Position numbers: made by a program. A stretch of 40,154 bases of DNA from a virus (Duplodnaviria > Heunggongvirae > Uroviricota > Caudoviricetes): IMG/VR virus record IMGVR_UViG_2531839523_000012, positions 1 to 40,154 of that record, one strand, 5' to 3'. Positions 37,801-40,154 of the stretch are shown here, one piece after another (position 1 is the first letter of the stretch; each line of letters starts with the position of its first letter).

Positions 37801-40154
37801 TTTTTTCAGTGTATACTTTTAGAAGTTTTTTTTTCGAGAATGACTTTTTAAAAATTCTGCTTGCAGTCATAGTCAATCCAAAGATATATTAATGGGAGTA
37901 TATAAAGGGCGGCAGTAGTAAATATTCGAAGTAATATCCATAAAATAACAATTATTTTTTCTTTTTGTGTGGGGATCCTCGTCGTAAGTCCAACTTGAGT
38001 TACCCTTGAAATTTTATCATCTATGTCACGGTGATTCTCAACCTCATTGAGCAAATTAAAATATTTTTCTTTCTGTTCAAGAGTTAACTGTTGACTGGTG
38101 GTAATGTCAAAATAGAGTCGCTGTAGTGCAATATAATTCCTTCTCATGGCTATTGCTCGACCACGAAAATCTAGGTTAGATACGATCAGAGAAATACCCA
38201 GTAGGGCCACCGAAAGTATTGCCGCAACGATATCTGTATTATCTCCTAGAACTTTTGGAAATCGCAACGTTACAATTGAAAGTACCGCACTCAATATAGC
38301 ATACCAAACGAGGATAAATTGAGAGTGCTTTTCAAGCCATTCTAGTCGATGGTGCGCTTGGATACGGGCTTTATATGTAAACCAAATATTGTCATGCATA
38401 AAAGATCCTTTTTAAAAGCGGAAGGGGCAGGATATATTGGAATCATTGAACATCCTGCCCGGCAGGATCAGTGAGCATAAGCTCAACAGTAAAATATTAC
38501 TGTTCATTATCAGAGCCGCCCTTGCATGCGCAAGAGGAAAAACCTGCCCCATCCTTTTGAATTATTACAATTTAATGATCTTAAAGTCAATACAAGCGAA
38601 TGGTGTCCAGAGATGATGAACTTAATGAACAAACCACTCGTCAGCAAACTCCCAAGTATCTTTCAGAGTCTCCTGAACAAAAGCCTTAGCAGAATCCTTA
38701 TCTGCGGTGTACGTAACAGGAAAATCATCGCTATGGTAGCTTTGACGCTCACCCCCATACCATAAAATATCAAGAGATTACGACTCATTTCCCCATGACT
38801 CTTCACCAACCAACAGTTCTATCAACATAAGATGTAAACTCATAAACTAAGCAAGATAAAAAAATTAACAGAATTTTGTTGATTTCATATCTGTGGAGTG
38901 TTAACTTAAAATGAGACCTGAAGTACTGAAGGTCTTTGACACACTGGAGAAGCAACTATGTTAACGCCGTTTGGTAAGACAGTAAGAAAAATGCGCATAG
39001 ACTTGGGGCTTACGCTTAAAAGCATGGCTGAGGCTATGGGCATGACCTCGTCTTATCTTTCAGCGATCGAAACTGGTAAAAGGGCGGTCACTAAGCCCGT
39101 GCTTGATAGCATCATTAGCTATTTTAATGCGGATGAAAAACAAAAAGAAAAGCTTATCAGTGCAGCTCGTGACTCTCAGCAGTCAGTAGAGATCAGCTTG
39201 TCAGGTAAGAATGGCCACGCTCGTGAAGTCGCAATTGCGTTCGCTCGTAGTTTTGATGAATTAAATGAAGAAGACTTCCGTAATTTACGACAGATTTTGA
39301 ATCGAAAACAGCAGTAGGAGGCGGCTTGAGCGGACAAGATTATCGTGTACCTCCGCAGAATCGTGAATCAATACGTTCTATCGTCACATCTCTGCGGAGC
39401 GCATTTGGTATTACTGGGCTTAAATTCCCTGTAATGGAGGTAATTGAGTTCGCATTGCCTCAGTTGATCCCGGATTTTGAGTTCCACATTGGTGGTATGA
39501 AAGAAATGGGAGAAACGCATGGTCTTACGTACCCACAGGAACATTTATTGATTCTGCGCGAAGACATTTACGAAGGCGCTTTGAATGGGGTAGGGCGAGA
39601 TAGGATGACTGCCGCGCATGAATTGGGTCATCTTCTTATGCACAGGAACATCGCATTTGCTCGTTCTGCCCCAGGGGTAAAAATCCGCCCTTTTGAGAGT
39701 AGTGAATGGCAAGCTAAATGTTTTAGTGGTGAGTTATTAGTGCCGGCTATGCATGCCAGTATTTTAAAAGGTATGACGGCTGAGGATGTTGCTAAGGCAT
39801 GCGGAGTTTCATTAGTGGCAGCGCGTTATCAGCTAGACAGAATGTAAAAACCCCTTGCTTGGCGCCAACCAGTGCAAGGGGCTTTAGGTGATGAATCCAA
39901 GAGGCATCACCACCGTGAACAGCTTCGATAGACAGCCTGAAATTAACACCTTCAGGGAAGATGTTCAAGGGAAAAATCTCTCTTGGTAAGGAGGTGTTTT
40001 ATGAATGGGTTTGAAATCAATTGCTTCAAAAGCGGCGCCCAAAGGGTTCCGTTGGGTTTTCTGCCGTTACCGCAAGGTGCGTGGGAAATCAAAAAAAGTC
40101 CTTGATGCTCATGATTACGGGTACGAGGCGTGGGCATTTTTAGTGCGCTGCTAA

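What the first reader, a model, noticed from the sequence alone, without database searches (positions are those of the whole stretch)
38400..38957. Palindrome cluster and long-range inverted repeats in the leader of the RT operon
Within 130 bp upstream of the membrane-protein start there is GGCAGGAT (38426-38433), a perfect 17-nt palindrome ATCCTGCC-C-GGCAGGAT (38452-38468), and a complementary CCTGCCCC about 110 nt away (38543-38550), enclosing short hairpins. This could be tandem operators for the adjacent XRE regulator, or flanking inverted repeats of a structured non-coding RNA used by the RT (retron a1/a2-like or DRT ncRNA-like). A second imperfect palindrome (AGACC-TGAAGTACTGAA-GGTCT, about 38915-38937) sits just upstream of the XRE gene.
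Basis: seen in the sequence. Interest (0 to 1): 0.6.

Follow-up and report, generated by a model that had tools for sequence, protein, structure and literature searches.

The report
Template RNA gene of DRT10 defence
The palindromes are the stems of a 137-nt non-coding RNA that a defence reverse transcriptase (DRT10/UG17) copies over and over to make telomere-like DNA repeats; this RNA was described experimentally in 2025, and the neighbouring XRE regulator belongs to a separate inserted cassette.

Summary
The repeats are real and far from chance. On the minus strand, window 38554-38418 encodes the DRT10 (UG17) ncRNA. The long-range inverted repeat (38543-38554 / 38420-38431) is its basal stem. 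The perfect 17-nt palindrome (38452-38468) is stem-loop SL5. SL5 lies immediately 5' of a 20-nt template loop carrying CAAU-GAUUC-CAAU, the exact A-B-A' template published for Eco3DRT10 (cDNA repeat GAATCATTG).

A covariance model finds the same RNA just upstream of SLATT in about 46 of 80 DRT10 loci from other species. Of 35 base pairs, 34 show compensatory changes.

The operator reading is not supported. The XRE-ImmA pair is an independent cassette inserted into a DinI-like gene. It occurs without DRT10 in other E. coli prophages, and DRT10 with an essentially identical ncRNA occurs without it.

The second palindrome (38914-38935) travels with the XRE cassette. Its position is conserved but its sequence is not, so it is most likely a 5'-UTR hairpin. 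The sequence-conserved, operator-like palindrome is TYAACA-N5-6-TGTTGA (window 38865-38882), over the XRE -35.

Verdict: a correct observation of an already known element.

The parts
38561..38590 (-). Sigma-70-type promoter of the ncRNA / SLATT-RT operon: -35 TTGACT (38590-38585), 18-nt spacer, TGT-extended -10 AATAAT (38566-38561). The predicted start is about 7 nt downstream, at G38554.
   Evidence: The promoter scan gives 10 of 12 matches with TG before the -10. TTGA of the -35 is invariant in 6 enterobacterial loci. A -10-like TAGAAT/TAAGAT ends about 7-8 nt before the RNA 5' end in most loci of other species.
38418..38554 (-). DRT10 (UG17) non-coding template RNA, 137 nt. RNA position n equals window coordinate 38555-n.
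   Evidence: Folds at -56.1 kcal/mol, z = -4.9. Covariance model hit of 149 bits, the only hit in the window. 34 of 35 pairs covary. With this numbering U110, C116, A117 and U119 fall exactly where the paper places them.
38543..38554 (-). 5' arm of the basal stem SL1 (RNA 1-12, GGAUGGGGCAGG).
   Evidence: I2; helix 1: all 11 pairs have changes on both sides.
38420..38431 (-). 3' arm of the basal stem SL1 (RNA 124-135, CCUGCCCCUUCC).
38516..38538 (-). SL2 (RNA 17-39).
   Evidence: helices 2-3.
38485..38504 (-). SL3 (RNA 51-70, AACAGUAA-UAUU-UUACUGUU).
   Evidence: I16; helix 4.
38473..38484 (-). SL4 (RNA 71-82, GAGC-UUAU-GCUC).
   Evidence: helix 5.
38452..38468 (-). SL5 (RNA 87-103), the perfect 17-nt palindrome. 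It is the stem-loop immediately 5' of the template and is proposed to be the template boundary element.
   Evidence: I15; helix 6: 5 of 5 core pairs covary. The core AUCC/GGAU is conserved, while the UGCC/GGCA extension occurs only in E. coli and Xenorhabdus. The boundary role comes from the paper.
38432..38451 (-). Template loop (RNA 104-123, 20 nt). A = CAAU (38448-38445), B = GAUUC (38444-38440) and A' = CAAU (38439-38436). The plus strand at 38440-38448 reads GAATCATTG, which is the published cDNA repeat unit.
   Evidence: A-B-A' repeats of 4 nt or more occur in 35 of 43 distinct homologous loops, against a shuffle mean of 13.8.
38400..38417 (-). 18-nt spacer carrying the ribosome-binding site (AAGGA) between the ncRNA 3' end and the SLATT ATG. 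It has no room for a separate promoter.
   Evidence: The same arrangement, a 15-30 nt spacer with GGAG, is seen in other loci.
37848..38399 (-). SLATT_5 two-transmembrane effector protein (183 aa).
   Evidence: PADLOC RTasSLATT 7.9e-57 and Pfam SLATT_5 4.8e-28.
36500..37870 (-). UG17/DRT10 reverse transcriptase, 456 aa from the ATG at 37870. It carries the YVDD catalytic motif and a C-terminal Ser456.
   Evidence: PADLOC RT_UG17 3.6e-158, full length. RefSeq annotates the same protein at 456 aa. S456 and YVDD are invariant in 20 homologues. The priming role of S456 comes from the paper.
38622..38765 (-). 3' fragment of a DinI-like prophage gene, frameshifted and lacking its N-terminus. It separates the DRT10 module from the XRE cassette.
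   Evidence: Alignment to the intact DinI-like gene of strain JSMCR1. Annotated as a partial pseudogene in strain 510016.
38865..38882 (+). TTAACA-GAATTT-TGTTGA, the window's copy of a sequence-conserved palindrome (TYAACA-N5-6-TGTTGA) that overlaps the -35 of the XRE promoter. It is the likely XRE autoregulatory operator.
   Evidence: Found 70-81 nt upstream of the ATG in all 8 distinct XRE cassette variants, whose XRE proteins are 59-100% identical.
38914..38935 (+). It starts directly after a promoter-like -10 (TAAAAT ends at 38912). It is the probable 5'-terminal hairpin of the XRE-ImmA mRNA.
   Evidence: A hairpin is kept at the same position in homologous cassettes but with unrelated sequence, even where the XRE is 97% identical, as in L100.
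38958..39847 (+). XRE-family HTH gene (38958-39317) and ImmA/IrrE M78 metallopeptidase gene (39326-39847). Together they form an independent two-gene cassette.
   Evidence: The cassette is found in 13 of 5426 complete E. coli genomes, and only one of these also has DRT10 beside it.

Best explanation
Window 38554-38418 (minus strand) is the gene for the DRT10 (UG17) template ncRNA. It is the first element of a tripartite ncRNA-SLATT-RT anti-phage module carried as a moron at the end of a lambdoid prophage.

Transcription starts from a sigma-70 promoter (38590-38561) at about G38554. This start is inferred. This fold is shown here by covariation. The last hairpin, SL5, is the 17-nt palindrome. 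It sits directly 5' of a 20-nt single-stranded loop containing CAAU-GAUUC-CAAU.

The following steps are published for Eco3DRT10, whose template, numbering, RNA length and RT length this locus matches. The RT binds the RNA and primes on the hydroxyl of its C-terminal Ser456. It copies A-B (CAAUGAUUC) up to the SL5 boundary. The nascent DNA then re-anneals on A' (CAAU) and the cycle repeats. The product is long single-stranded (GAATCATTG)n DNA, made in a telomerase-like way. The SLATT membrane protein is the effector.

SLATT and RT are probably translated from read-through of the same transcript, because only 18 nt with a ribosome-binding site separate the RNA from the SLATT ATG. This is inferred.

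The XRE-ImmA genes and the palindrome at 38914-38935 belong to a separate cassette. That palindrome is most likely a 5'-UTR hairpin. The cassette's conserved operator-like site is at 38865-38882.
For: RT: PADLOC RT_UG17 3.6e-158 over the full length, with the next family at 1.3e-36. SLATT: RTasSLATT 7.9e-57 and Pfam SLATT_5.

Literature: a 137-nt ncRNA lies upstream of SLATT, with a basal stem plus four stem-loops. The cDNA repeat is GAATCATTG. The template follows an A-B-A' rule, with U110, C116, A117 and U119 named. SL5 acts as the boundary, S456 is the priming residue, and the template loop has 20 positions (PMC12632851). An independent study reports the same architecture.

Window: GAATCATTG sits at 38440-38448. 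The inferred 137-mer places U110, C116/A117 and U119 exactly as published and has a 20-nt loop. Fold z = -4.9.

Conservation: model R1 gives one hit per locus, on the same strand and just 5' of SLATT, in about 46 of 80 loci from other species. 95.9% of cells are paired, against about 50% in the slid controls. 34 of 35 pairs have compensatory changes, and 0 of 500 shuffles reach the observed values. A-B-A' repeats are enriched, 35 of 43 against a shuffle mean of 13.8. The -10 element and the RBS sit at fixed distances from the RNA ends.

Independence from the XRE.
Against: No expression data exist for this particular locus. The RNA ends are inferred from promoter spacing, from the structure and from agreement with published numbering, and the 5' end was partly derived from that numbering. 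I could not confirm from the supplements that the window is the same strain as Eco3DRT10. No intrinsic terminator was found after the RNA, so how the discrete 137-nt species is made, by processing or by termination, is unknown. How the repeat DNA activates SLATT is unresolved in the literature.
Confidence: 0.93

Rival explanations
1. The GGCAGGAT/ATCCTGCC repeats are tandem DNA operators bound by the adjacent XRE (CapH-like) repressor. The ImmA (CapP-like) protease would cleave the repressor to switch on the SLATT-RT operon after DNA damage.
For: The XRE and ImmA proteins give weak PADLOC matches to capH (3.6e-10) and capP (7.7e-11). They are transcribed divergently from the RT operon. CapH/CapP pairs are known to control immune operons from the upstream intergenic region (10.1101/2022.04.27.489752).
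Against: E. coli DRT10 loci with no XRE nearby keep an essentially identical ncRNA, differing at 1-5 positions. The exact 17-nt palindrome was found only in L001 and L002. None of 80 DRT10 loci from other species has a homologue of this XRE within 3 kb. The XRE cassette occurs in 12 other complete E. coli genomes without DRT10, and it lacks the palindrome in the three such loci fetched. A DinI pseudogene fragment lies between the two modules. The repeats vary by compensatory changes, as RNA helices do, and are not conserved in sequence. The cassette has its own conserved palindrome at its own -35, and no copy of the XRE-side palindrome lies near the ncRNA promoter.
Confidence: 0.03
2. The region is a retron msr-msd gene. 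The long-range inverted repeat would be a1/a2, the internal hairpins would be msr/msd stems, and the product would be branched multicopy single-stranded DNA.
For: The layout is superficially similar: flanking inverted repeats enclose hairpins upstream of an effector gene and an RT gene.
Against: The RT scores 525 bits to UG17 against 125 bits for the next best family (Drt3a), and no family named as a retron RT is among the 25 listed. No Rfam family, retron msr included, matched even at E up to 10. For this RT family the product is protein-primed tandem-repeat DNA copied from a 9-nt template, not a 2'-5' branched msDNA.
Confidence: 0.01
3. The structure is mainly a cis-acting leader, such as an attenuator or an mRNA-stabilising or translation-controlling element of the SLATT-RT mRNA, rather than a trans-acting RNA.
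For: The RNA ends 18 nt before the SLATT ATG with no room for another promoter. In E. coli the basal stem is followed by UUUU. The fold of the longer 181-nt leader keeps the same helices.
Against: The published RNA is bound by the RT, is sufficient with RT and dNTPs for repeat synthesis in vitro, and works in trans. The U-run is not conserved in other genera and no terminator was called. A leader role could still exist in addition to the template role.
Confidence: 0.1
4. For the second palindrome only: 38914-38935 is the autoregulatory operator of the XRE protein.
For: It is a 22-bp imperfect palindrome that starts just after a promoter-like -10 and overlaps the likely transcription start. It always travels with the XRE cassette.
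Against: In cassettes whose XRE is 97% identical, the element either changes spacing (N10 to N11, with a symmetric T/A to C/G change) or is replaced by an unrelated palindrome (L100: GCAAGC-N10-GCTTGC). TYAACA-N5-6-TGTTGA, in contrast, is conserved in sequence in all 8 variants. A hairpin at a fixed position with free sequence points to RNA structure.
Confidence: 0.15

Closest known systems
Eco3DRT10 ncRNA (DRT10/UG17 system; Tang et al. 2025, PMC12632851)
   Same: A 137-nt RNA lies upstream of SLATT on the operon strand, with a basal stem plus four stem-loops and a 20-nt template loop. The A-B-A' template is CAAU-GAUUC-CAAU at positions 107-119, and the cDNA unit is GAATCATTG. The RT is 456 aa with YVDD and a C-terminal S456.
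   Different: No difference was detected in the features the paper states. Strain identity could not be verified. Here the module sits beside an XRE-ImmA cassette that the paper does not mention.
UG17-A ncRNA of Escherichia sp. E3659 (Sanchez-Nieto et al. 2026, bioRxiv 10.64898/2026.04.29.721553)
   Same: The tripartite ncRNA-SLATT-RT order is the same. The RNA has its own promoter and a basal SL1 that is essential for RNA stability, and the product is tandem-repeat cDNA.
   Different: That RNA is about 143 nt, is described with six stem-loops, and templates 7-nt repeats through ACU motifs. The window's RNA is 137 nt and templates a 9-nt repeat through CAAU motifs.
Telomerase RNA (template, alignment region and template boundary element)
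   Same: A short template is copied repeatedly. A 3' alignment segment identical to the start of the template (A') allows re-annealing, and a helix 5' of the template sets the boundary. This analogy comes from the paper.
   Different: Synthesis is protein-primed rather than extending a chromosome end. The RNA is a small bacterial one, and the product is free single-stranded DNA used in phage defence.
DRT9 (UG28) ncRNA
   Same: It belongs to a related class-2 UG RT, has a similar overall ncRNA architecture, and supports protein-primed synthesis of repetitive DNA.
   Different: DRT9 makes poly-dA from a conserved poly-U template. DRT10 template loops are variable in sequence and follow the A-B-A' rule.
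CapH/CapP and ImmR/ImmA, DdrO/IrrE regulator pairs (comparison for the XRE-ImmA cassette only)
   Same: An HTH repressor gene is followed by an M78/IrrE-type metallopeptidase gene, with weak PADLOC hits to capH and capP. An operator-like palindrome overlaps the cassette's own promoter.
   Different: The peptidase is 173 aa and matches only positions 56-147 of the 242-position capP profile, so the region outside the peptidase core is not matched. CapP is described as having a GAF domain. The cassette is not stably associated with any immune operon here.

Membership tests
DRT10 (UG17) defence system | The reverse transcriptase belongs to the UG17 clade and has an intact YVDD motif. | tested here: met
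   PADLOC RT_UG17 3.6e-158, 525 bits, covering profile positions 1-429 of 429. RYVDDILIL is present and invariant in homologues.
DRT10 (UG17) defence system | An adjacent, translationally coupled SLATT_5 effector gene lies upstream of the RT. | tested here: met
   RTasSLATT 7.9e-57 and Pfam SLATT_5 4.8e-28. The SLATT stop at 37848-37850 overlaps the RT start at 37870.
DRT10 (UG17) defence system | A structured ncRNA lies immediately upstream of SLATT on the same strand, with a basal stem closing several small stem-loops. | tested here: met
   Fold z = -4.9. Covariance model hits sit at the same relative position in about 46 of 80 loci. 34 of 35 pairs have compensatory changes.
DRT10 (UG17) defence system | An A-B-A' repeat lies in the single-stranded loop just 3' of a stable stem-loop (SL5). 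| tested here: met
   CAAU-GAUUC-CAAU at RNA 107-119, 3 nt after SL5. The same pattern is enriched in homologous loops.
DRT10 (UG17) defence system | A conserved C-terminal hydroxyl residue for protein priming (S456 in Eco3DRT10). | tested here: met
   The 456-aa protein ends in ...EEDISGIS, and S456 is invariant in 20 homologues of 59-83% identity.
DRT10 (UG17) defence system | The RT and ncRNA synthesise tandem-repeat cDNA, and the module protects against phage. | not testable with these tools
   Published for Eco3DRT10. This needs miniprep-seq and plaque assays on this locus.
Retron (msr-msd ncRNA plus retron RT) | A retron-clade RT and an msr/msd RNA with a1/a2 repeats and a branching G. 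| tested here: not met
   The best family is UG17 by 400 bits. No Rfam match at E up to 10. The literature shows protein-primed synthesis for this family.
CapH/CapP-type regulation of the neighbouring immune operon | The regulator pair is stably encoded upstream of the operon it controls, with the operator in that operon's promoter. | tested here: not met
   The two modules are adjacent in 1 of 5426 E. coli genomes. Each module occurs without the other. The conserved palindrome lies at the XRE's own -35, not at the ncRNA promoter.
CapH/CapP-type regulation of the neighbouring immune operon | CapP architecture: a Zn-metallopeptidase plus a GAF domain. | tested here: not met
   The 173-aa protein matches only capP profile positions 56-147 of 242. 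The only Pfam family above its curated threshold is Peptidase_M78, and no GAF family was found. The GAF domain is described.

The most novel reading that the evidence does not exclude
In the E. coli lineage SL5 has been lengthened by UGCC/GGCA. As a result the four arms (basal 5', SL5 5', SL5 3', basal 3') are mutually complementary. A strand-swapped fold, in which the SL5 3' arm pairs with the basal 3' arm and closes the template loop, lies only 2.2 kcal/mol above the minimum and holds about 12% of the predicted ensemble. This could be a conformational switch that gates template access or helps template translocation. Separately, the chance juxtaposition with an XRE-ImmA cassette might put this particular DRT10 copy under damage-responsive control.
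Probability: 0.06. Interest if true: 0.5.

Novelty: already known. Interest (0 to 1): 0.18.

Why it matters
DRT10 is a striking system: a bacterial reverse transcriptase that uses a small RNA much as telomerase uses its RNA. However, this RNA, down to its 9-nt template, was characterised experimentally in 2025 and again in 2026. The value of this result is for annotation. It shows that a sequence-only reader can pick out the DRT10 ncRNA from its palindromes. It supplies exact coordinates for every element. It also corrects the tempting inference that the divergent XRE-ImmA pair regulates the RT operon, since the two are independent cassettes sharing a prophage hotspot. Rfam release 15 has no family for this RNA, so automated annotation will currently miss it.

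Tried and rejected
Six lines of work led nowhere or were rejected.

- **Rfam.** A scan of 36300-39100 at E up to 10 gave only chance-level hits such as miRNA and snoRNA families, all far below their gathering scores.
- **Eco3DRT10 identity.** I searched the supplements of PMC12632851 for 'Eco3', RefSeq protein ids and the first 12 nt of the RNA, to prove identity with Eco3DRT10. Nothing was found in the held text.
- **XRE operator near the ncRNA promoter.** I looked for a copy of the XRE-side palindrome elsewhere in the window, allowing 3 mismatches. The only match is the site itself.
- **XRE or ImmA beside other DRT10 loci.** tblastn over 80 DRT10 loci from other species found no XRE homologue and one weak ImmA-like hit, in L011.
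- **Alternative SL5/basal-arm pairing as a conserved feature.** Duplex energies for each sequence against itself average -7.15 kcal/mol, against -6.58 for cross-sequence pairs. The permutation p is about 0.007, but the sequences are related and both segments are G- or C-rich. I therefore treat the result as inconclusive and as mainly an E. coli-lineage peculiarity.
- **Readings considered and rejected.** These were a retron msr/msd gene, an intrinsic terminator (none was called on the minus strand) and chance palindromes.
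Full report
**Observation.** GGCAGGAT is at 38426-38433, the perfect palindrome ATCCTGCC-C-GGCAGGAT is at 38452-38468, and CCTGCCCC is at 38543-38550. The repeat finder extends the long-range inverted repeat to 12 nt (38420-38431 / 38543-38554, 92% complementary). It also lists the two perfect internal hairpins. The second palindrome is AGACCTGAAGT/ACTGAAGGTCT at 38914-38935. The 8-mer ATCCTGCC occurs 8 times in the window against 1.74 expected, and three of those lie within 43 nt here.

**Gene context.** On the minus strand, 36500-37870 encodes a 456-aa reverse transcriptase. 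It matches the PADLOC model RT_UG17 over its full length (3.6e-158, with the next family at 1.3e-36). 37848-38399 encodes a SLATT_5 two-transmembrane protein (RTasSLATT 7.9e-57; Pfam SLATT_5 4.8e-28). On the plus strand, 38958-39317 is an XRE-type HTH protein and 39326-39847 is an ImmA/IrrE M78 peptidase, with weak matches to capH and capP. The surrounding genes (J, lom, side tail fibre, tail fibre assembly) show a lambdoid prophage. In related genomes this prophage abuts prfC.

**Literature.** UG17 has been named DRT10. Tang et al. (PMC12632851, October 2025) showed by RIP-seq that the Eco3DRT10 RT binds a 137-nt ncRNA encoded upstream of SLATT. [quoted passage not shown] The RT primes on its own C-terminal Ser456 and makes long tandem repeats of 5'-GAATCATTG-3'. 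The template follows an A-B-A' rule: A-B is copied and A' re-aligns the product. U110 is the fourth base of A, C116/A117 are the first bases of A', and U119 is its fourth base. The template loop has 20 positions. SL5, just upstream of the loop, is needed for any repeat product and probably sets the template boundary. A second group reports the same tripartite architecture, an independent ncRNA promoter and an essential basal stem for a UG17-A system.

**Mapping onto the window.** The plus strand at 38440-38448 reads GAATCATTG. The minus-strand RNA therefore contains CAAUGAUUC followed by CAAU, which is exactly the published A-B-A'. Placing A at positions 107-110 puts RNA position 1 at 38554 and position 137 at 38418. 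That 137-mer has these properties:
- It starts at the first base of the basal stem.
- It has U110, C116, A117 and U119 as published.
- It contains a 20-nt loop at positions 104-123.
- It folds into SL1 (1-12/124-135), SL2 (17-39), SL3 (51-70), SL4 (71-82) and SL5 (87-103) at -56.1 kcal/mol, z = -4.9.

A promoter-like TTGACT-18-(TGT)AATAAT on the minus strand ends at 38561, seven nucleotides before position 1.

**Independent test with related loci.** I collected 80 UG17 loci from other species using an RT alignment. Six enterobacterial upstream regions aligned well and already showed compensatory changes. A covariance model built from them found one hit per locus in about 46 loci. Each hit was on the RT strand, immediately 5' of SLATT. 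The window itself had only one hit. On the resulting alignment:
- 95.9% of cells are paired, against about 50% when partners are slid by 1-3 columns.
- 34 of 35 pairs show changes on both sides.
- No shuffle out of 500 reaches the observed values.

SL5 keeps a core AUCC/GGAU with a variable top. The long UGCC/GGCA extension that makes the 'perfect 17-nt palindrome' is confined to E. coli and Xenorhabdus. A-B-A' repeats of at least 4 nt occur in 35 of 43 distinct template loops, against a mean of 13.8 in shuffled loops. A -10-like hexamer ends 7-8 nt before the RNA in most loci. A ribosome-binding site and the SLATT start follow its 3' end within 15-30 nt. The ncRNA is therefore also the physical leader of the operon. 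No terminator was detected after it. How the discrete RNA arises is not settled.

**The XRE question.** In complete E. coli genomes, homology to the RT-SLATT-ncRNA module stops at window 38753, inside a DinI-like gene. Only one of 5426 genomes has the XRE genes next to it. Strains JSMCR1 and FDAARGOS_1288 carry an essentially identical ncRNA, differing at 1 and 5 positions, with an intact or frameshifted DinI-like gene and no XRE. The window's 38622 to about 38765 is a frameshifted 3' fragment of that DinI-like gene. The XRE-ImmA cassette occurs in 13 genomes. In the three cassette loci without DRT10 that I examined, it lies beside a DinI-like fragment or at another prophage end. None of the 80 DRT10 loci from other species has a homologue of this XRE. 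The exact 17-nt palindrome is found only in DRT10 loci, and AGACC-N12-GGTCT only in XRE-cassette loci. The two modules are independent morons that happen to be neighbours. The operator hypothesis for the ncRNA palindromes is rejected.

**The second palindrome.** I fetched homologous XRE cassettes from viral contigs, with XRE proteins 59-100% identical. Two upstream elements are seen.
- A sequence-conserved palindrome, TYAACA-N5-6-TGTTGA, lies 70-81 nt before the ATG in all eight distinct variants and overlaps the -35. In the window it is TTAACA-GAATTT-TGTTGA at 38865-38882.
- A hairpin lies about 20-45 nt before the ATG. Its position is kept but its sequence is free. The window has AGACCT-N10-AGGTCT. 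Two variants with 97% identical XRE have AGACCC-N11-GGGTCT. Another 97% identical variant has GCAAGC-N10-GCTTGC. More distant variants have other sequences again.

A nearly unchanged HTH protein cannot be reading all of these sequences. Both assignments are inferences.

**Comparison and novelty.** The element meets every sequence-level criterion of DRT10, and matches Eco3DRT10 in particular. I could not verify strain identity. It is not a retron: the RT belongs to a different clade, no Rfam family matched, and the family's synthesis is protein-primed. The XRE-ImmA pair resembles CapH/CapP only loosely, because the peptidase matches only the core of the capP profile and the pair is not stably linked to an immune operon. 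The finding is a correct detection of an already described RNA. Interest for discovery is low, but it is useful for annotation, since Rfam 15 has no model for it.

**Residual oddity.** In this lineage the four arms of SL1 and SL5 are mutually complementary. A strand-swapped fold that closes the template loop is predicted only 2.2 kcal/mol above the minimum, with about 12% occupancy. Across the family the support for this alternative pairing is weak and confounded by base composition and relatedness. I record it as unexplained rather than functional.

Noticed in passing
L001 7449-8777 (E. coli strain 510016; corresponds to window 37848-38399): The only complete E. coli genome with a near-identical locus (99.9%) has an IS1A element inserted in the SLATT gene, whereas the window's SLATT is intact. 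This may reflect selection against a toxic effector. The literature links RT-SLATT toxicity to sbcB.
   Followed up: no
window 38622-38765 (-): This is a frameshifted 3' fragment of a DinI-like prophage gene, lying between the DRT10 module and the XRE cassette. A second, intact DinI-like gene follows the cassette in related genomes, so the cassette appears to have inserted into, or recombined at, DinI.
   Followed up: partly
window 38865-38882 (+); L085, L089, L100, L102-L106 at about 70-81 nt upstream of the XRE ATG: The palindrome TYAACA-N5-6-TGTTGA over the -35 of the XRE promoter is conserved in all cassette variants examined.
   Followed up: partly
window 40005-40154 (+): A 49-aa ORF (MGLKSIASKAAPKGFRWVF...) with a strong ribosome-binding site (GGTAAGGAGGTG) follows XRE-ImmA. 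It is annotated as a hypothetical protein in other genomes that carry the cassette. It may be the cassette's cargo, and its function is unknown.
   Followed up: no
window 39848-39890 (+): A GC-rich inverted repeat, CCCCTTGC...GCAAGGGG, lies directly after the ImmA stop codon. It is a possible terminator of the XRE-ImmA operon. This was seen by eye only.
   Followed up: no
L003 5017-5153 (E. coli FDAARGOS_1288) and L004 683-819 (Xenorhabdus santafensis): These close relatives have the template CAAC-GGUUC-CAAU, so A and A' differ at the fourth base. The paper reports that position as tolerant. These systems should therefore make a different 9-nt repeat, predicted to be GAACCGTTG.
   Followed up: partly
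window 38420-38554 (-), RNA positions 5-12, 87-94, 96-103 and 122-129: The four arms are mutually complementary. An alternative fold (-53.9 against -56.1 kcal/mol, about 12% of the ensemble) pairs the SL5 3' arm with the basal 3' arm and encloses the template loop. The family-wide test was inconclusive.
   Followed up: partly
window 33190-33915 (within the side tail fibre gene 32895-35102, +): The tail fibre protein contains a long low-complexity stretch of Ala/Ser/Thr-rich repeats (…AAKTSETNAKSSQTAAKTSETNAKASETAA…). This stretch also produces long spurious ORFs in other frames.
   Followed up: no
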